Assembly: GCF_040493455.1 (NCBI RefSeq)
Contig: NZ_JANFDA010000001.1
Span: 483,283-547,282 of the forward strand
DNA: 64,000 nt
From: Winogradskyella sp. 3972H.M.0a.05
Lineage (GTDB): Bacteria; Bacteroidota; Bacteroidia; Flavobacteriales; Flavobacteriaceae
Reading direction: 5' to 3'
Part shown: piece after piece, positions 27,437-32,549 of the stretch
Position numbering within the stretch: position 1 is the stretch's first letter
Layout of the letters: every line of letters starts with the position of its first letter
Position numbers and translations under genes: made by a program
Notes under the pieces: model-generated
The model's database searches: none
Told to the model about the DNA's origin: nothing
What the model saw: only the letters and a program-made list of their open reading frames with translations

Positions 27437-27509
27437 TGACGTATAGCTTAGTCGGTAGAGCAGGGTGCTTTTAACACCAAGGTCGTGAGTTCGAATCTCG
27501 CTGCGTCAA
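27437..27509 (+). tRNA. tRNA-Lys (anticodon TTT)
   Basis: Manual cloverleaf: acceptor tgacgta/tgcgtca (U1:A72), D-arm gctt-agtcggtag-agc, anticodon loop cttttaa, T-arm cgtgagttcgaatctcgc. Confidence 0.8.
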
Positions 27510-27515
27510 CAAATT

Positions 27516-27588
27516 GGGGATATAGTTTACCAAGCCAAAACAGTGGGTTTGCAACTCGCAGTACGGAGTGTAAGTCTCCGTGTCTCCA
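27516..27588 (+). tRNA. degenerate tRNA-like gene (anticodon-position TGC, Ala-like); probable pseudogene
   Basis: Cloverleaf can be drawn (acceptor ggggata/tgtctcc, loop tttgcaa). The D-loop lacks GG, the T-loop is tgtaagt, and the anticodon stem has two G-U pairs. Confidence 0.4.
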
Positions 27589-27593
27589 CAAAA

Positions 27594-27665
27594 GATATTG
27601 TAGCTCAATGGTAGAGCAGGCGGCTGTTAACCGCCAGGTTGAAAGTTCGAGTCTTTCCAATATCG
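27594..27665 (+). tRNA. tRNA-Asn (GTT)
   Basis: Acceptor gatattg/caatatc, anticodon arm ggcgg-ctgttaa-ccgcc, T-arm ggttgaaagttcgagtcttt. Confidence 0.85.
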
Positions 27666-27668
27666 CTA

Positions 27669-27742
27669 GACAAGGTGGCTGAATGGTTAAAGCGGCAGTC
27701 TGCAAAACTGTTTTTTTATGAGTTCAAATCTCATCCTTGTCT
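27669..27742 (+). tRNA. tRNA-Cys (GCA)
   Basis: Acceptor gacaagg/ccttgtc, loop ctgcaaa, T-arm atgagttcaaatctcat. Unusual T6 run in the variable region. Confidence 0.75.
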
Positions 27743-27754
27743 CAAAAAAAATTA

Positions 27755-27897
27755 GGGAATGCGTCCAAGTTGGAGAGTGGAGCCAGTCTGACTAGAGCTT
27801 GCGACTGAGCGAAACCGATTTAAAACAATAGAAATGATTGAGTTAAAAACTGGTGCTTCGGTTGAATAGGTTCGAAATGCAGAGCATTCATGAGCAC
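27755..27897 (+). other. non-canonical tRNA-like gene A: type-II-like 5' part with an approximately 55-nt anticodon-loop insertion and the derived 3' module
   Basis: Acceptor-like gggaatg; D-stem tcc/gga with a 12-nt GG-containing loop. Anticodon stem ccagt (27783) pairs with actgg (27849) across 62 nt. The 3' end is aggttcgaaatgcagagcattcatgagcac. Confidence 0.4.
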
Positions 27898-27949
27898 AGC
27901 GATTCAAAAACTAAAATCAAGCGAACTAATCCTATGATTCCCACAACAA

Positions 27950-28021
27950 GCATCTATAGTGTAATTGGCAACATAGTAGATTTCCAATCTACAGTTTCGA
28001 GTTCGAGTCTCGGTAGGTGCT
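27950..28021 (+). tRNA. tRNA-Gly (TCC)
   Basis: Acceptor gcatcta/taggtgc, loop tttccaa, T-arm tcgagttcgagtctcgg. Confidence 0.85.
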
Positions 28022-28031
28022 CATAATACAC

Positions 28032-28103
28032 GCGCTTATGGTGTAATGGCTAGCATCTGAGTCTCCAAAACTTAGGGTTGAGGTTCAAGTCCTTATGGGC
28101 GCG
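28032..28103 (+). tRNA. tRNA-Trp (CCA)
   Basis: Acceptor gcgctta/tgggcgc, D-arm gtgt-aatggcta-gcat, loop ctccaaa, T-arm tgaggttcaagtcctta. Confidence 0.85.
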
Positions 28104-28110
28104 CAAATTA

Positions 28111-28240
28111 TATCTATGGTGTAATTGGATAGCACAAGAGATTTAGCTCACAGACTAATTATTATAAAATGTGGAGTTCCTGAATGCTTCGCATTTCTAA
28201 TCTCTAAGTCCGAGTTCGAAATGCTTTGCATTCATGAGTT
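28111..28240 (+). other. non-canonical tRNA-like gene B: tRNA 5' part with a 52-nt anticodon-loop insertion (possible mature loop tttctaa, Arg-TCT) and the derived 3' module
   Basis: D-arm gtgt-aattggata-gcac as in Trp/Gln. Anticodon stem agaga (28137) pairs with tctct (28201) across 59 nt. The 3' end is gagttcgaaatgctttgcattcatgagttc. Confidence 0.4.
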
Positions 28241-28292
28241 CTTATTTATCAAAATAATAATATGACGAACTAACCTTGGTAGATATACATCT

Positions 28293-28364
28293 GGTTCATT
28301 GGGGTAATGGATATCCTTCCCGACTGTCTCTCGGGAGATACGAGTTCGATTCTCGTATGAACCG
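28293..28364 (+). tRNA. tRNA-Asp (GTC)
   Basis: Acceptor ggttcat/atgaacc, loop ctgtctc, T-arm acgagttcgattctcgt. Confidence 0.85.
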
Positions 28365-28369
28365 CAACT

Positions 28370-28451
28370 GTGCTCTGTTACCATAAGATATGGTGCTGGG
28401 TTCTAAAAAGGGAAGTATAAGGGGCCATTTTCTTTACAGAGCACATTTTTT
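28370..28451 (+). terminator. terminator-like structured element: perfect 9-bp stem enclosing a 57-nt substructured loop, followed by a T6 run
   Basis: gtgctctgt...acagagcac then attttttaag. An internal hairpin ccata-aga-tatgg is present. Confidence 0.45.
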
Positions 28452-28466
28452 AAGAGATTATTCAAT

Positions 28467-28548
28467 GGAAGGGCAATTGGTGGTGGCCACAGTCTTGAAA
28501 ACTGTTCGGAGCTAACGACTCGTGTGGGTTCAACTCCCACCTCTTCCG
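28467..28548 (+). tRNA. tRNA-Ser (TGA), class II with variable arm
   Basis: Acceptor ggaaggg/ctcttcc, anticodon arm acagt-cttgaaa-actgt, variable arm about 18 nt, T-arm gtgggttcaactcccac. The D-arm is poorly defined. Confidence 0.65.
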
Positions 28549-28801
28549 CTACATGGAGGGTAGGCAAATACTGGTTCGTTGCGCTCGTTTGCTAAACAAG
28601 TCCGTGAGAAATCCGGTGAAGGTTCAAATGCGAAGCATTCACGAATACCTATTTATTGAATAAGTATTTAATGAGTAACTCCTTTATCCTCCGCAAATCT
28701 GGGAATAGAACAATTGGCTGTTTACTCGCTTTGGATGCGAGAGGTTGTAGAGCCTGTGCCGAACTAGATTCGGTATTCGAGTCCTACTTCTCAGACGAAA
28801 T

Positions 28802-28928
28802 GCTCCATTAGCATAGTGGTTTAGTGCATTCGGCTTTAACTCACTGACGCATATTTAGGAAATTGGTTTCGTTGAATTCGCAAACTCATTTCTACCGAAA
28901 GACAAGGGTTCGATTCCCTTATGGAGTA
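28802..28928 (+). tRNA. tRNA-like gene with a 54-nt insertion in the anticodon loop (mature loop could be ctttcta for Glu-TTC, or ctttaa-a for anticodon TTA)
   Basis: Acceptor gctccat/atggagt, D-arm gca-tagtggtttag-tgc. Anticodon stem ttcgg (28829) pairs with ccgaa (28895) across 61 nt. Normal T-arm aagggttcgattccctt. Confidence 0.5.
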
Positions 28929-28935
28929 CAAATTT

Positions 28936-29007
28936 TGAGGCATAGCTCAGTGGTAGAGCGTCACGCTTACATCGTGATTGTCATAGGTTCGATCCCTATT
29001 GCCTCAA
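28936..29007 (+). tRNA. tRNA-Val (TAC)
   Basis: Acceptor tgaggca/tgcctca (U1:A72), D-arm gctc-agtggtag-agcg, loop cttacat, T-arm ataggttcgatccctat. Confidence 0.85.
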
Positions 29008-29012
29008 CATAA

Positions 29013-29085
29013 TGAGATATAGCTTAACTGGTAGAGCGCCGCTCTGATAAGGTGGTAGGTTTAGGTTCAACTCCTAATATCTCAA
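29013..29085 (+). tRNA. tRNA-Ile (GAT)
   Basis: Acceptor tgagata/tatctca, loop ctgataa, T-arm ttaggttcaactcctaa. Confidence 0.85.
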
Positions 29086-29095
29086 CTAATAATAA

Positions 29096-29168
29096 TGAGA
29101 TGTAGCTTAATTGGTAGAGCATCGCTCTCATAAGGCGAAACGTCTAGGTTCGAGTCCTAGCATCTCAA
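29096..29168 (+). tRNA. tRNA with CAT anticodon (elongator Met or lysidine-Ile2; not initiator-like)
   Basis: Acceptor tgagatg/catctca, loop ctcataa. The anticodon stem lacks the 3 G-C pairs of an initiator. The body closely resembles the adjacent tRNA-Ile. Confidence 0.8.
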
Positions 29169-29174
29169 CAATTT

Positions 29175-29249
29175 ACAGGAATGGCGAAAATGGCAAACGC
29201 ACTCGACTTAGACTCGAGGTATCTGAGAGTTCGAATCTCTCTTCCTGTA
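29175..29249 (+). tRNA. class-I-shaped tRNA with Leu anticodon TAG (no long variable arm)
   Basis: Acceptor acaggaa/ttcctgt, D-arm gcg-aaaatggcaaa-cgc, perfect anticodon arm ctcga-cttagac-tcgag. Only 6 nt lie between the anticodon stem and the T-arm gagagttcgaatctctc. A73 is present. Confidence 0.6.
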
Positions 29250-29253
29250 CTAT

Positions 29254-29327
29254 GCTCCACTAGCCCAAATGGCAGAGGCATCAGTCTTAAACACTGAGTA
29301 GTCCAAGTTCGAATCTTGGGTGGAGTT
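29254..29327 (+). tRNA. class-I-shaped tRNA with Leu anticodon TAA (no long variable arm; U73)
   Basis: Acceptor gctccac/gtggagt, anticodon arm tcagt-cttaaac-actga, 5-nt variable loop, T-arm ccaagttcgaatcttgg. Confidence 0.6.
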
Positions 29328-29333
29328 CAACAA

Positions 29334-29410
29334 GCTCATGGTGTAATGGATAGCATTCAAGGCTACGGACTTTGAGGTATGGGTTCGAAATGCAAAGCAT
29401 TCACGAGCTC
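29334..29410 (+). other. non-canonical tRNA-like gene D: tRNA-Arg(ACG)-like body whose T-arm is replaced by the derived 3' module
   Basis: Acceptor gctcatg pairs with cacgagc. D-arm gtgt-aatggata-gcat, anticodon arm caagg-ctacgga-ctttg, then aggtatgggttcgaaatgcaaagcattcacgagctc. Confidence 0.45.
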
Positions 29411-29459
29411 AAATTTATCAAAATGATTATGAGGCGAGCTAGTCCTATTGAGCTTACAA

Positions 29460-29531
29460 TAACCTGTAGTGTAATGGTTAGCATTCAAGACTTTGACTCT
29501 TGAGGTAAAGGTTCAAATCCTTTCAGGTTAT
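29460..29531 (+). tRNA. tRNA-Gln (TTG)
   Basis: Acceptor taacctg/caggtta, D-arm gtgt-aatggtta-gcat, loop ctttgac, T-arm aaaggttcaaatccttt. Confidence 0.85.
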
Positions 29532-29533
29532 CT

Positions 29534-29606
29534 GGTGTCTATAGTGTAACGGCTCGCACGAGAGATTGTGGTACTCTAAGATTAGGTTCGACTCCTAATA
29601 GACACC
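29534..29606 (+). tRNA. tRNA-His (GTG) with encoded G-1 paired to C73
   Basis: G-1 then gtgtcta pairs with tagacac then C73. Loop ttgtggt, T-arm ttaggttcgactcctaa. Confidence 0.8.
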
Positions 29607-29612
29607 CAAAAT

Positions 29613-29685
29613 GGAGCAGTAGCAAAGTTGGTCAATGCAGCAGATTGAAGTTCTGACGATATAGGTTCGATTCCTGTCTGTTCCA
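29613..29685 (+). tRNA. tRNA-Phe (GAA)
   Basis: Acceptor ggagcag/ctgttcc, loop ttgaagt, T-arm ataggttcgattcctgt, A73. Confidence 0.8.
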
Positions 29686-29689
29686 CAAA

Positions 29690-30256
29690 TTTTCATGAAT
29701 TTTTAATTACGCAAAATCATTGCGTAATAGAAATTCACCTTTGTATCAACATTTACCGATAAAGGTAGAATTACGTTCATTGAAATTAAATGAAGTCAAA
29801 GTACTTCATTATAGAAAGAAATCGTCATTAGAAATAATGACGGGGCGGCTTATCGTCCTTAGATAAACTTGGCAACAAGGATAAATCTGCTTGCAGGCAC
29901 TGCGAGTGGAGACTGTTTTCTCTAGAGATCAGTACAGGTAAGCAAGCAACTAACATAAATCATAAAAAGCTAGGGGCAACCGCTGAAGCAAATTAGGATT
30001 TATAGCCAATATTTTTGGAGGCTTGAGGTGGAGACACCAACAGGAAAAGTTGTAGTAATAGGTTACGTATAGGTCATCCAACCTTATGGAGCGTGTTGCA
30101 GTATTAGAGGTACCCGACAAGAAATTGTTCGGTAGCTCAACATACCGTGTGCTGGGAGGCACACAAAGAGAAGGTTGGTATTTTGTAGGCCAAAATCTAC
30201 GGAGCCATTTCCGAAGCCCTTCTCTTAGGCCAGACGATAGTCTATCTCCAACAAAA
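29690..30256 (+). ncRNA. ORF-free structured RNA candidate (hairpin-dense, locally GC-enriched); identity unknown
   Basis: No ORF above about 115 aa and none with a plausible start or composition. Multiple perfect hairpins (ttacgcaa-aatc-attgcgtaa; cgtcatta-gaaa-taatgacg with a GNRA loop; gtag-gccaaaat-ctac; ccgacaag-aaatt-gttcgg). GC is well above the flanking sequence. Confidence 0.35.
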
Positions 30257-30831
30257 TGGGGATATAGCTCAAGTTTAGAGCATTGTATTTTTAACACAAA
30301 GGTTGACTTTATATCTTAAATGCAAAAGACTTCGGACATTACAGCAGCTAGTAGTTGCCTAAACCTATTGAAACATATAGGATGGTAGAGGTCGCAAACC
30401 TATACCATGTGGTGAACATTCTAGTAGGCCGCCTCAAGAGAGGACGCCTATGAATGGTGGGGGAGCCAACCCTCGTAATTGCAAAGCGTGGCCGTAGAGC
30501 CTCTATGCAAGCCAAGTCTAAGTCGCCGAACAGCTGTAATGTAATTAGGCATCGGACAAGTACGTGATTCCCTAAGCGATGGGAAGAGCGTGGAAAACCA
30601 AGGAAGGGCTACGGCTATAATCTTGGGAAAGTTTGTCTACAAGCGGAGGTATTCTCAGCACGCTTTTTTTAAAAATATCAAGCTGGTCTTGTTGCGTGTT
30701 TCTGTATAGCACCATTGTATAGAAGATTGCAGGGATGTATTATGCTTCTATATGCAACTAGACTTGAAGGTTTGGGTTTATCCAAAAAACTCCACCAAAG
30801 TTCAGTGTGGGTTCGAATCCCACTATCTCTA
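30257..30831 (+). other. split tRNA-like gene: intact 5' half (acceptor, D-arm, anticodon arm with loop tttttaa) separated by about 500 nt of structured sequence from a T-arm plus acceptor 3' half; either an intron-containing tRNA or two pseudogene fragments
   Basis: 5' half ggggatatagctcaagtttagagcattgtatttttaacacaa at 30257-30299. 3' half gtgggttcgaatcccac-tatctct-a at 30807-30831. The acceptor halves pair with 2 G-U. The intervening sequence is ORF-free and hairpin-rich, with an internal T7 run at about 30675. Confidence 0.35.
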
Positions 30832-30833
30832 AC

Positions 30834-30941
30834 GGGATATGGCGGAATGGTAGACGCACTAGATTTGAGGTCTAGCGGACAGATGACATTCTCAAAAAAT
30901 GTCTCTTTTAATGTTGCCGGTTCGACTCCGGTCATAAGCTC
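30834..30941 (+). other. degenerate Ser-like (TGA) tRNA-like sequence with an approximately 42-nt variable region
   Basis: D-arm gcg-gaatggtaga-cgc, perfect anticodon arm ctaga-tttgagg-tctag, T-arm ccggttcgactccgg. The acceptor pairs poorly. Confidence 0.35.
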
Positions 30942-30957: not shown

Positions 30958-31025
30958 GCTTTTGTAACTCAATGGTAGAGTACTACGCTGTTAACGTAGC
31001 AGGTCATTATAGACCACTAAAGCCG
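30958..31025 (+). other. degenerate second Asn-like (GTT) tRNA-like sequence with an aberrant T-arm
   Basis: Acceptor ggctttt/taaagcc (6 bp), anticodon arm ctacg-ctgttaa-cgtag. T-arm reduced to ggtc-attata-gacc. Confidence 0.35.
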
Positions 31026-31451: not shown

Positions 31452-32549
31452 ATGAAACAAGTAAGAATTAATGCAGGAAAAGTTGGTTTGGTCTTCAAAA
31501 AAGGGGATTACCAAAAAGTATTGACGCAAGGTAAATACTGGTTAGGCTTTGGACAAGATGTTTATATCTATGACTTAGCCAAGACATTCCACGCTCCCAT
31601 AGCATTAGAGCTCTTAGTAAAGGATAAAACCTTAGAGGCTATGTTGGAGGTTGTTGAGGTAAAAGATAATGAACTGGTATTGGTGTTTGAAAACAACATT
31701 TTAAATACTGTATTATCTGCCGGAAGATATGTGTACTGGAAAGGTTTGGTAGAGCGCGAGTTTACAAGAGTAGACTTAAGCAAGATCGATATTACAGAAG
31801 ATATTGATAAAGCGTTATTCAGCAAGTATGAATTGAATAAGTACATCAGATCTTTTGAAGTCGCTACTCATGAAAAAGCAGTACTTATCATTGATGATGT
31901 GTACGAAAAAACACTTGGGCCAGGTATCTATCGTTTCTGGAGAAACGATACTTCAATTAAAATTGCAAAAGCAGATTTACGTCAATTACAATTAGAAATT
32001 GCAGGTCAGGAATTGTTGACTAAAGACAAGGCTGCTATTCGTATCAACTTTTACACTCAGTACAAAGTAACAGATATTGAAAAGGCACTTTTAGAGAACA
32101 AGGACTACGAAAAGCAATTGTACATTGGAATGCAATTAGTATTGCGTGCTTATGTAGGTACATATACTTTGGACGAACTTTTAGAACGTAAGGATAATAT
32201 TGCCGAGGCTGTATTAGAAGACGTAAAAGAGTTAGCTTCAAAGTTAGGTATCACAGTATTGAACACAGGTATTAGAGATGTAATCTTAACAGGTGAAATG
32301 AAAGACATCATGAACCAGGTACTTGTGGCTCAAAAGAAAGCCCAAGCTAATATCATTACTAGACGAGAAGAAACAGCTTCGACTCGTAGCTTGTTAAACA
32401 CAGCAAAGTTGATGGAAGAAAATGAAATGTTATACAAGTTGAAAGAGATGGAGTATGTTGAAAAAATTGCTGATAAGATTGGTGAAATTACAGTTTCTGG
32501 TCACGGAGGTGTAGTTGCACAATTGAAAGAGATTTTCTCTGGAAAATAA
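31452..32549 (+). CDS. SPFH/band-7 (stomatin/flotillin-like) domain protein with an unknown approximately 190-aa N-terminal domain; no TM helix
   Basis: The C-terminal approximately 170 aa is SPFH-like (AIRINFYTQYKV...NTGIRDVILTGEMKDIMNQVLVAQKKAQANII...). Confidence 0.65.
   Translation: MKQVRINAGKVGLVFKKGDYQKVLTQGKYWLGFGQDVYIYDLAKTFHAPIALELLVKDKTLEAMLEVVEVKDNELVLVFENNILNTVLSAGRYVYWKGLVEREFTRVDLSKIDITEDIDKALFSKYELNKYIRSFEVATHEKAVLIIDDVYEKTLGPGIYRFWRNDTSIKIAKADLRQLQLEIAGQELLTKDKAAIRINFYTQYKVTDIEKALLENKDYEKQLYIGMQLVLRAYVGTYTLDELLERKDNIAEAVLEDVKELASKLGITVLNTGIRDVILTGEMKDIMNQVLVAQKKAQANIITRREETASTRSLLNTAKLMEENEMLYKLKEMEYVEKIADKIGEITVSGHGGVVAQLKEIFSGK

What the first reader, a model, noticed from the sequence alone, without database searches (positions are those of the whole stretch)
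27755..28928. Three tRNA-like genes carry homologous 52-62 nt insertions in the anticodon loop (candidate short bacterial tRNA introns)
In element A (27783 to 27853), element B (28137 to 28205) and the gene at 28802-28928, the 5' and 3' anticodon-stem strands are perfectly complementary but separated by 59-62 nt instead of 7.

- The B and 28802 inserts are clearly related. Both start ttta(g/a)ctcac(a/t)gac and both end catttcta immediately before the 3' stem strand.
- If the last 7 nt form the mature loop they read tttctaa (Arg-TCT) and ctttcta (Glu-TTC). Those are exactly the isoacceptors otherwise missing from the array.
- Known bacterial tRNA introns are group I, about 200 nt or longer. Short anticodon-loop introns are an archaeal and eukaryal feature and need a splicing endonuclease that bacteria lack.
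- These are therefore either a new class of small self-splicing or processed inserts, or recurrent insertions of a small mobile element into anticodon loops.
Basis: seen in the sequence. Interest (0 to 1): 0.85.

Follow-up and report, generated by a model that had tools for sequence, protein, structure and literature searches.

The report
Small structured inserts in tRNA loops
Five tRNA genes in a marine Flavobacteriaceae tRNA array are interrupted by seven copies of an undescribed ~52-nt structured element that sits in T-loops and anticodon loops; two of the three anticodon-loop copies lie backwards, so they fit insertions of a small mobile element better than classical introns.

Summary
The window's tRNA array (27437-29686) holds seven copies of one 51-54-nt module in five genes.

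- **Deletion test:** removing all seven by one rule makes ARAGORN call Arg-TCT, Ser-GCT, Glu-TTC, Arg-ACG and a Tyr-type tRNA. Uninterrupted orthologs in related genomes are 86-96 % identical end to end.
- **Structure:** the module has a short hairpin and a longer one whose base is an invariant tandem GA/GA flanked by covarying pairs.
- **Orientation:** the B and 28802 inserts are the reverse complement of the same module. Only A's insert is sense.
- **Census:** in 84 typed copies from marine Bacteroidota, T-loop copies are 50 sense and 0 antisense. Anticodon-loop copies are 17 and 17, decided by which strand reads [G/C]AA, best GAAA.
- **Other settings:** the module also occurs alone in intergenic DNA and inside group II introns. 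It is absent from the viral contigs searched and from Rfam.
- **Neighbours:** RtcB-PrfH RNA-repair genes flank such arrays in 17 related loci, but not in this window.

Best reading: a new small structured mobile element, not a self-contained intron. Whether it is spliced, tolerated or silencing is unresolved.

The parts
27437..29686 (+). tRNA gene array: 14 tRNAs called by ARAGORN as is, 19 after in-silico removal of the modules; Rfam adds Ala-TGC at 27516-27588
27755..27944 (+). Gene A: class II tRNA-Tyr ortholog (uninterrupted relatives read CTGTAAA), interrupted twice
   Evidence: 85.5 % identical over the full length to uninterrupted L004/L016/L050 genes
27791..27844 (+). Module copy in the anticodon loop of A. 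Sense orientation, subfamily 2, degenerate. Boundaries are uncertain by 1-3 nt within A-runs
   Evidence: nhmmer E = 7e-6
27875..27927 (+). Module copy in the T-loop of A (TTCG|AAATGC...GCGAACT|AAT), sense
   Evidence: (E = 6e-12)
28110..28288 (+). Gene B: tRNA-Arg(TCT), interrupted twice
28145..28196 (-). Module copy in the anticodon loop of B, on the minus strand (antisense to the tRNA). Its reverse complement reads TTAG|AAATGCGAAGCATTCAGGAAC...GTGAGCT|AAA
   Evidence: minus-strand hit E = 1.4e-7; empty site in L052/L069
28219..28271 (+). Module copy in the T-loop of B, sense
   Evidence: (E = 2.5e-14)
28555..28694 (+). tRNA-Ser(GCT), class II, interrupted in the T-loop
28626..28676 (+). Module copy in the T-loop of Ser-GCT (TTC|AAATGC...GAGT|AACT), sense
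   Evidence: (E = 3.5e-12)
28802..28929 (+). tRNA-Glu(TTC), interrupted in the anticodon loop
   Evidence: 95.9 % identical to uninterrupted L009/L046 genes
28838..28891 (-). Module copy (subfamily 2) in the anticodon loop of Glu-TTC, on the minus strand. Its reverse complement reads TAG|AAATGAGTTTGCGAATTCAACGAA...GTGAGTT|AAAG
   Evidence: E = 4e-17
29332..29457 (+). tRNA-Arg(ACG), interrupted in the T-loop
   Evidence: 95.9 % identical to uninterrupted L030/L043 genes
29388..29440 (+). Module copy in the T-loop of Arg-ACG, sense
   Evidence: (E = 5.7e-15)

Best explanation
The inserts are copies of a previously undescribed, non-coding, ~52-nt structured element.

**Anatomy (read on its own sense strand)**
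- (G)AAA
- a short hairpin P3 (AUGC-NNN-GCAU, or variants that keep pairing)
- UCA
- a longer hairpin P4, whose base is a tandem G.A/A.G flanked by covarying Watson-Crick pairs
- (C)UAA

**How it behaves**
- The element is dispersed in Bacteroidota genomes. In marine Flavobacteriaceae it has repeatedly colonised the 7-nt loops of genes in accessory tRNA arrays.
- Insertion happens at the DNA level, at a [G/C]AA (best GAAA) site in the loop, on whichever strand carries it.
- T-loops (TTCGAAT) and anticodon loops of NNA anticodons receive it in sense. Anticodon loops beginning U33-U34 (Arg-UCU, Arg-UCG, Glu-UUC) receive it in antisense.
- So it is not a self-contained intron of the tRNA.

**Shown**
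- Family membership and the fold's covariation.
- The target rule.
- Presence/absence polymorphism with exact empty sites.
- Intact host cloverleaves.

**Inferred**
- The insertion mechanism. Either microhomology or gene-conversion-type copying between T-loop-like hairpins, or a trans-acting recombinase using an AA core. No transposase partner was seen.
- The RNA fate. My best guess is that sense T-loop copies are compatible with tRNA function. They leave U54-A58 contiguous and project from positions 59/60. They are either tolerated there or cut out and resealed by an RtcB-type ligase.
- Anticodon-loop copies, above all the antisense ones in B and the Glu gene, most likely keep those redundant array genes out of translation unless a structure-guided nuclease removes them.
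For: **One family in both orientations**
-.

**Covariation**
- CG29/UA15, AU23/GC15 and UA29/CG13 around the invariant GA/GA.
- Score 0.355 against 0.168 for shuffles (0 of 500 reach it). Slid controls give at most 0.123.
- P3 also keeps pairing through double changes.

**Deletion and empty sites**
- In-silico deletion restores 5 tRNAs in the window. Across 113 modules, calls rise from 440 to 514.
- Uninterrupted orthologs are 84-96 % identical across the junctions, with an exact empty site for B.

**Orientation and target rule**
- T-loop 50 sense, 0 antisense. Anticodon loop 17 and 17.
- 29 insertions in 301 genes with [GC]AA against 1 in 193 without (p = 7e-6). GAAA loops: 17/63 against 13/431 (p = 3e-9).

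**Other contexts**
- About 55 stand-alone intergenic copies. 15 of 17 are co-oriented with the upstream gene.
- At least two copies (L071, L170) sit inside group II introns.

**Absent from known collections**
- No Rfam family.
- None in the viral contigs searched, for either motif pattern.
- No description in the searched literature.
Against: - No transposase, terminal inverted repeats or autonomous partner were found.
- Copies within the window are only 60-73 % identical, unlike a recently active MITE.
- Modules at the same site in different genera are as conserved as the tRNA exons (0.74-0.79 against 0.70-0.78), including antisense copies. That is unexpected for inert selfish DNA.
- The T-loop is palindromic (TTCGAA), so a purely target-driven DNA insertion should also give antisense T-loop copies. 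None is seen in 50.
- Closing stems differ between hosts yet stay 5/5 complementary. The interrupted genes complete the array's amino-acid set. Both suggest the genes are still used, which would require removal or tolerance of the module.
Confidence: 0.55

Rival explanations
1. **Genuine enzymatic tRNA introns.** The precursor is cut on both sides of the module by a protein endonuclease, or by the module itself, leaving 2',3'-cyclic phosphate and 5'-OH ends. RtcB then joins the exons. This would be bacterial tRNA splicing of the archaeal/eukaryal type, with introns that move between tRNA genes as in Thermoproteales.
For: - Host genes are intact and restored by clean deletion.
- T-loop copies are strictly sense.
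- The fold is conserved and covarying.
- RtcB (PF01139, E = 1e-37) lies next to the arrays in 17 loci, with PrfH in 7.
- In T-loop copies both junctions fall in unpaired A-rich segments. These could flank a 4-bp UUCG:YGAR helix (direct reading of the sequences).
- The interrupted genes supply isoacceptors otherwise missing from the array.
Against: - Half of the anticodon-loop copies are antisense, including two of the three in this finding, so the fold cannot form in the pre-tRNA.
- Junctions are not at 37/38.
- The Tyr hosts cannot be restored to CTGTAAA.
- No splicing endonuclease candidate was found.
- RtcB-PrfH is a known ribosome-repair pair (PMC9304027) and is absent from this window.
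- The module also lives outside tRNAs.
- The UUCG:YGAR helix competes with the covariation-supported pairing.
Confidence: 0.25
2. **Retained extra domain.** The module stays in the mature RNA. In T-loops it is an expansion arm emerging at positions 59/60 of an otherwise normal T-loop. The tRNA hairpins merely provide a closing stem for a module RNA that has its own function, for example as a protein-binding site.
For: - Sense T-loop insertion keeps U54-U55-C56-R57-A58 contiguous. An antisense copy would split U55|C56, which matches the 50:0 bias.
- Module conservation equals exon conservation.
- The module occurs as a stand-alone transcribed element downstream of genes and in group II introns.
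- A Cytophagales form has its own extra hairpin and terminator, arranged in tandem units.
Against: - A module in an anticodon loop is incompatible with decoding.
- Antisense copies do not present the motif in the tRNA transcript.
- Folding energies are unremarkable (z about 0).
- No partner protein was identified.
Confidence: 0.13
3. **Inert selfish DNA in decaying pseudogenes.** The insertions simply killed redundant array genes and nothing further happens.
For: - The arrays are accessory, with presence/absence polymorphism.
- Antisense copies exist.
- Double hits occur in single genes (A, B; several Ser-TGA genes in other loci).
- Tyr hosts carry a non-restorable loop.
- A second, unrelated insertion family populates the same arrays.
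Against: - Cloverleaves and closing stems remain intact, with compensatory differences between genera.
- The window's Glu gene differs from the uninterrupted L009/L046 genes at three positions. Two of these form one compensatory anticodon-stem pair.
- The strict sense bias in T-loops needs selection.
Confidence: 0.07

Closest known systems
Archaeal bulge-helix-bulge tRNA introns at non-canonical positions, with intron transposition in Thermoproteales (PMC4033280, PMC4090602)
   Same: - Short (<100 nt) non-coding inserts.
- Found in several tRNA species and at several positions, including the T-loop.
- Multiple inserts can occur in one gene.
- Related sequences appear in different tRNAs, implying movement.
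- The ligase of that pathway (RtcB) is encoded next to many of the arrays.
   Different: - The host is bacterial.
- No EndA-type endonuclease is seen.
- There is no convincing BHB motif, and junctions are not at 37/38.
- Half of the anticodon-loop copies are antisense.
- The same element also occurs outside tRNAs.
Bacterial group I introns in tRNA anticodon loops (10.1101/2020.01.27.920355; PMC13011429)
   Same: They interrupt bacterial tRNA genes in the anticodon loop and hide the genes from standard tRNA finders.
   Different: - These inserts are 51-54 nt, against about 200 nt or more.
- No group I core, no U-1/omega-G, and no Rfam intron hit.
- They also sit in T-loops and occur in both orientations.
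Intervening sequences (IVS) of bacterial 23S rRNA (e.g. Coxiella, PMC4990558)
   Same: Selfish or optional inserts in the hairpin loops of a structural RNA gene. They vary between relatives, are transcribed with the host RNA, and the host RNA still works.
   Different: - IVSs are longer and form long duplexes cut by RNase III without religation.
- Here the closing stem is only 5 bp.
- A tRNA cut in the anticodon loop cannot work without religation.
Small non-autonomous repeats that invade genes (MITEs, REP/PATE elements, Rickettsia palindromic elements; from my own knowledge)
   Same: - Non-coding, structured and dispersed.
- Inserted in either orientation.
- Tolerated at permissive sites of functional genes.
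- A-rich ends are compatible with a 2-bp (AA) duplication or core.
   Different: - No terminal inverted repeats.
- No near-identical copy bursts.
- No transposase partner was seen.
- Targets are hairpin loops of tRNA genes.
- The fold is strand-specific, with a tandem GA motif.
Hammerhead ribozyme (augmented stem II: G8.A13, A9.G12, U7-A14)
   Same: A three-way junction in which one helix is extended by a tandem G.A, followed by one further covarying pair that corresponds to the hammerhead's non-canonical U7-A14 contact. CGAAA precedes a short hairpin in T-loop copies.
   Different: - The core reads UUCAYGA, not CUGANGA.
- The junction strands are 6 and 8 nt instead of 1 and 3.
- There is no Rfam hammerhead hit.
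- This is a resemblance only.

Membership tests
Bacterial group I tRNA intron | About 200 nt or more, with a P1-P9 catalytic core detectable by covariance models | tested here: not met
   The inserts are 51-54 nt. Rfam scans at E <= 5 give no intron family over the array.
Bacterial group I tRNA intron | U at the end of the 5' exon and G at the 3' end of the intron; sense orientation | tested here: not met
   Module ends lie in A-runs (sense) or U-runs (antisense). B and 28802 are antisense.
Archaeal/eukaryal enzymatic tRNA intron | Bulge-helix-bulge (or relaxed) motif presenting both splice sites | tested here: inconclusive
   T-loop copies can draw UUCG:YGAR (4 bp) flanked by unpaired AAA and (C)UAAU. 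This competes with the covariation-supported YGAR/YGAR pairing. It cannot be drawn for Cys, Glu or Arg-TCT anticodon-loop copies (sequences).
Archaeal/eukaryal enzymatic tRNA intron | Canonical position 37/38 | tested here: not met
   Junctions compatible with all hosts are 35/36-36/37 (sense), 33/34-34/35 (antisense) and 57/58-59/60 (T-loop).
Archaeal/eukaryal enzymatic tRNA intron | Splicing endonuclease (EndA/Sen) in the genome | not testable with these tools
   Only 64 kb of the genome and 8-kb related loci are available. None of the recurrent neighbour families is an EndA.
Archaeal/eukaryal enzymatic tRNA intron | RtcB-type ligase available | tested here: inconclusive
   RtcB lies next to arrays in 17 related loci but not within this window (tblastn). 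In at least seven loci it is paired with PrfH, a known ribosome-repair module (PMC9304027).
rRNA-type intervening sequence | Optional insert in a hairpin loop of a structural RNA gene, variable among relatives | tested here: met
   Filled and empty orthologous sites.
rRNA-type intervening sequence | Long duplex stem processed by RNase III, no religation | not testable with these tools
   The closing stem is only 5 bp and P4 is short and A/U-rich. Processing needs RNA data.
MITE / IS-derived non-autonomous element | Terminal inverted repeats | tested here: not met
   The ends ATGCNNNGCAT... and ...YGAR(Y)T are not inverted repeats of each other.
MITE / IS-derived non-autonomous element | Target-site duplication | tested here: inconclusive
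   AA is present on both sides in every copy. This is compatible with a 2-bp duplication, a shared core dinucleotide, or no duplication.
MITE / IS-derived non-autonomous element | Autonomous partner with the same ends encoding a transposase | tested here: inconclusive
   Every left-end motif recognised as a genuine module copy had its right end within about 55 nt. The exceptions are a few truncated copies and chance matches in protein genes. No long version was seen. Whole genomes were not searchable.
Hammerhead ribozyme | Core CUGANGA ... GAAA ... H17, with single-nucleotide and 3-nt junction strands | tested here: not met
   The module reads UUCAYGA, and its junction strands are 6 and 8 nt. 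No Rfam hammerhead match in the window or loci.

The most novel reading that the evidence does not exclude
Marine Bacteroidota carry out protein-dependent (endonuclease plus RtcB) splicing of ~52-nt mobile mini-introns from T-loops and anticodon loops of array-encoded tRNAs. This would be the first non-group-I tRNA splicing system in bacteria. The module could act as a removable lock that keeps a backup tRNA set inactive until an RNA-damage response is induced.
Probability: 0.2. Interest if true: 0.95.

Novelty: new variant of a known kind. Interest (0 to 1): 0.8.

Why it matters
Bacterial tRNA genes are regarded as structurally uniform, with group I and II introns as the only known interruptions (PMC4033280). 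This work shows something different.

- A widespread, conserved, structured 52-nt element interrupts dozens of bacterial tRNA genes, in T-loops as well as anticodon loops.
- It hides about 15 % of the genes in these arrays from standard tRNA finders (440 calls against 514).
- Either outcome is of interest. If the element is removed, bacteria have an unrecognised tRNA splicing or repair route, plausibly using RtcB, whose natural bacterial substrates are still largely unknown. If it is not removed, this is a new kind of loop-targeting mobile element with an RNA-like fold.
- Both outcomes are directly testable with tRNA-seq in cultured strains such as Kordia algicida OT-1 or Aquimarina.

Tried and rejected
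- **Phage origin.** The phage collection shows only generic tRNA similarity, and both module patterns have 0 hits in viral contigs.
- **Known RNA family.** Rfam at permissive thresholds found nothing over the modules.
- **Hammerhead ribozyme.** The Cytophagales form (C)GGAUGAGAACC...GGUUCGAAAUGC...GCAUUC, and L044's exact CUGAUGAG, looked hammerhead-like. No stem I can form, GGAU pairs with AUCC, and Rfam finds no hammerhead.
- **Start codon.** The idea that the 3' strand NTGAGTAAA starts a downstream gene fails. Most such ORFs are 3-50 aa.
- **Common gene next to stand-alone copies.** None was found. The 23S-IVS-protein neighbour in L078 is a single case.
- **Type III antitoxin-like tandem repeats.** Tandem copies are rare and no toxin gene follows.
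- **Strand test by minimum free energy and G.U counts.** Inconclusive, because the A-rich composition biases it. Single-sequence folding z-scores are about 0.
- **In-situ inversion of a sense copy to explain antisense copies.** Rejected, because the residual loop nucleotides are correct in tRNA sense.
- **Literature.** Eight full-text searches found no description of T-loop or ~50-nt inserts in bacterial tRNAs.
Full report
**1. What is in the window**

Region 27437-29686 (+) is a dense tRNA array. ARAGORN tRNAs and Rfam 17, including one that spans a 54-nt insert at 28802-28928.

The array is chromosomal, not phage. The neighbours are PEP carboxylase, ferritin, an RND transporter and an SPFH protein. 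The phage collection gives only generic tRNA similarity. The closest related arrays are in marine Flavobacteriaceae such as Winogradskyella, Bizionia and Wocania.

**2.

The three stem pairs and spacings are as described. AATGCNNNGCATTCAYGA occurs four times on the plus strand, always where a T-loop should be. A fifth copy lies on the minus strand inside B's anticodon insert. About 0.3 matches are expected by chance.

Reverse-complementing the B and 28802 inserts aligns them with the T-loop inserts and with A's insert:
- T-loop copy: TTCG|AAATGC-AGA-GCATTCATGAG...GCGAACT|AAT
- rc(B): TTAG|AAATGC-GAA-GCATTCAGGAAC...GTGAGCT|AAA
- rc(28802): TAG|AAATGAGTTTGCGAATTCAACGAA...GTGAGTT|AAAG
- A: CTG|ACTAGAGCTTGCGACTGAGCGAA...TTGAGTT|AAAA

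HMM searches confirm this statistically (minus-strand hit E = 1.4e-7; 4e-17 and 7e-6). The window therefore holds seven copies of one module family in five genes.

**3. They are clean insertions**

Deleting the seven modules (51-54 nt) by one rule, AAATG...GAG(Y)T, makes ARAGORN newly call five genes:
- tRNA-Arg(TCT) at 28110-28288
- Ser(GCT) at 28555-28694
- Glu(TTC) at 28802-28929
- Arg(ACG) at 29332-29457
- a long-arm tRNA at 27755-27944

The spliced sequences match full-length uninterrupted genes in other genomes' arrays: Glu 95.9 %, Arg-ACG 95.9 %, Arg-TCT 87.8 %, gene A 85.5 %. Bizionia (L052/L069) has B's anticodon loop empty, agagaTTTCTAAtctct, while keeping the T-loop copy. Gene A's uninterrupted orthologs read CTGTAAA, so it is a tRNA-Tyr.

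**4. The family**

A genome-collection scan for the T-loop motif gave 70 loci. About 50 are tRNA arrays of marine Flavobacteriaceae, about 11 are Cytophagales loci and 9 are chance hits in protein genes. Iterative HMM search found about 115 copies with a closing stem that is almost always 5/5 complementary but differs in sequence between hosts.

After deletion, ARAGORN assigns a host to 84 of 113. Total tRNA calls in these loci rise from 440 to 514.

**5. The fold**

Three Watson-Crick pairs around an invariant GA...GA covary: CG29/UA15, AU23/GC15 and UA29/CG13. The covariation score is 0.355 against 0.168 +/- 0.016 for shuffles (0 of 500), and slid controls give at most 0.123.

P3 keeps pairing through double changes: ATGC/GCAT, ATGCG/CGCAT, ATGAAC/GTTCAT, ATGT/ACAT. 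In subfamily 2 it is itself UGAG/CGAA.

The motif is strand-specific, because its complement would be UC/UC. Thermodynamic stability is unremarkable. The evidence for structure is comparative.

**6. Orientation and target**

- T-loop copies: 50 sense, 0 antisense (binomial p = 2e-15).
- Anticodon-loop copies: 17 sense (Phe-GAA, Ser-TGA, Cys-GCA, Tyr) and 17 antisense (Arg-TCT, Glu-TTC, Arg-TCG, Gln...).
- Orientation follows sequence. Loops with [G/C]AA on either strand have 29 insertions in 301 genes, against 1 in 193 without (p = 7e-6). Loops containing GAAA (Ser-TGA CTTGAAA, rc Arg-TCT TTAGAAA, rc Glu TAGAAAG) have 17 in 63, against 13 in 431 (p = 3e-9).
- Because of the A-runs, the exact junction is ambiguous by 1-3 nt. 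It is never the canonical 37/38. The data equally fit an element ATG...GAGYT flanked by AA on both sides.
- A strand-agnostic, sequence-driven rule points to insertion into DNA.
- TTCGAA is palindromic, so the absence of antisense T-loop copies needs selection or homology-driven copying between T-arms. A sense copy leaves U54-A58 contiguous. An antisense copy would split U55|C56.

**7. Beyond tRNAs**

- About 55 are genuine modules that are intergenic, single, lack a closing stem and share no neighbour gene.
- They are often embedded in heptamer simple repeats.
- 15 of 17 lie downstream of a co-oriented gene (p = 0.002).
- At least two lie inside group II introns, upstream of domain V.
- In Cytophagales a larger form with an extra hairpin occurs in tandem ~150-bp units after a genuine tRNA. 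Each unit repeats the tRNA's 3' part and terminator.

**8. Gene neighbourhood**

Families recurring next to the arrays:
- SPFH protein: 24 loci, including the window at 31452-32549
- RtcB (PF01139, E = 1e-37): 17 loci
- a TPR protein: 16 loci
- PF04308 RNase-H-like protein: 12 loci
- PrfH (TIGR03072, 245.6 bits against a cutoff of 166.65): 7 loci, in the order RtcB-PrfH-TPR in most of them

RtcB-PrfH is a characterised ribosome-repair pair (PMC9304027). The arrays therefore sit in an RNA-damage-response neighbourhood. That supplies a plausible ligase but does not prove splicing. The window itself has no RtcB.

**9. Weighing the readings**

Against a simple intron:
- antisense copies
- non-canonical junctions
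- Tyr hosts that cannot be restored to CTGTAAA
- occurrence outside tRNAs

Against inert junk:
- intact cloverleaves and compensatory stem differences
- module conservation equal to exon conservation, even for antisense copies (0.74-0.79 against 0.70-0.78)
- the strict sense bias in T-loops
- interrupted genes that complete the array's amino-acid set

I therefore commit to a new small structured mobile element that invades tRNA loops at the DNA level. Its RNA fate is unresolved. I rate 'spliced with RtcB-type ligation' at about 0.25, 'retained extra arm' at about 0.13 and 'dead genes' at about 0.07 as separate alternatives.

**10. Novelty**

No Rfam family, no viral copies and no paper in the searched library describe this. 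A standard review states that group I and II introns are the only known interruptions of bacterial tRNA genes (PMC4033280).

Noticed in passing
window 30166-30664 (+): A GOLLD-like RNA lies directly downstream of the tRNA array (Rfam RF02032, 130.4 bits, E = 2e-35, below the gathering score of 150). It has an embedded tRNA-like segment at 30258-30317. The same arrangement occurs in L052 (135 bits). GOLLD is usually described from phages and Lactobacillales. Here it is chromosomal, in Flavobacteriaceae.
   Followed up: partly
window 28700-28797 (+), insert about 28746-28772; also L013, L022, L024, L026, L031, L063, L067, L070: A second, unrelated ~27-nt insertion family (GAGCCTGTGCYGRACTNGATYCRG) sits between the 5' strand of the T-stem and the T-loop. 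Its hairpin covaries: CCGAA/TTCGG, CTGAA/TTCAG, CCGGA/TCCGG. It occurs in the window's Pro-TGG-like gene and in other tRNAs: about 12 copies in about 10 loci, including the window.
   Followed up: partly
window 27755-27944; L002, L022, L049 (L035, L052, L062 and L069 carry a similar long-arm host of uncertain identity): tRNA-Tyr-type (class II) hosts all read CTG|module|(T)TAAAA. Uniform excision gives anticodon GAA in a Tyr body. Keeping T35 gives an 8-nt loop. Neither restores the CTGTAAA seen in uninterrupted orthologs.
   Followed up: partly
window 29175-29250 and 29254-29328: The two tRNAs with Leu anticodons (TAG, TAA) are only 75-76 nt and lack the long variable arm expected of bacterial tRNA-Leu. 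Orthologs in other arrays look the same.
   Followed up: no
window 28366-28462 (+): A 10-bp-stemmed hairpin (GUGCUCUGUU...AACAGAGCAC, with the outer pairs GUGCUCUG/CAGAGCAC) followed by a U-run lies in the middle of the array (MFE z = -2.7). It has no homolog in the other arrays. It could be an internal terminator or a remnant.
   Followed up: partly
window 30838-30937 and 30958-31024 (+): More tRNA-like genes lie after the GOLLD-like RNA. One has a ~41-nt variable region (Rfam tRNA 26 bits, below threshold). The other is a 67-nt tRNA (36.9 bits).
   Followed up: no
L029 3964-4660; also L006, L020, L036, L040, L044, L056, L057 (Cytophagales): After a genuine tRNA and its terminator come tandem ~150-bp units. 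Each unit reads CGGAUGAGAACC-loop-GGUUCGAA-module-AAUCCG, followed by the tRNA's 3' acceptor strand and terminator. The extra hairpin's loop varies from a tetraloop to about 20 nt. The origin and role of these units are unknown.
   Followed up: partly
related loci L007, L018, L021, L032, L055, L061, L062 and others: A recurrent gene set flanks the arrays: RtcB, PrfH, a TPR protein, sometimes a metallophosphoesterase-like protein, the tRNA array, a PF04308 (YkuK-like) protein and an SPFH protein. Together these suggest an island devoted to damage of the translation apparatus. An unannotated ~106-128-aa protein recurs in 10 loci.
   Followed up: partly
L078, L094, L148, L162, L164 (metagenome contigs): Stand-alone module copies are embedded in long heptamer or octamer simple repeats, such as (GGAATTG)n and (AAAAGCC)n. 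L078 has 1.7 tandem modules followed by a gene for a four-helix-bundle, 23S-IVS-protein-like protein.
   Followed up: partly
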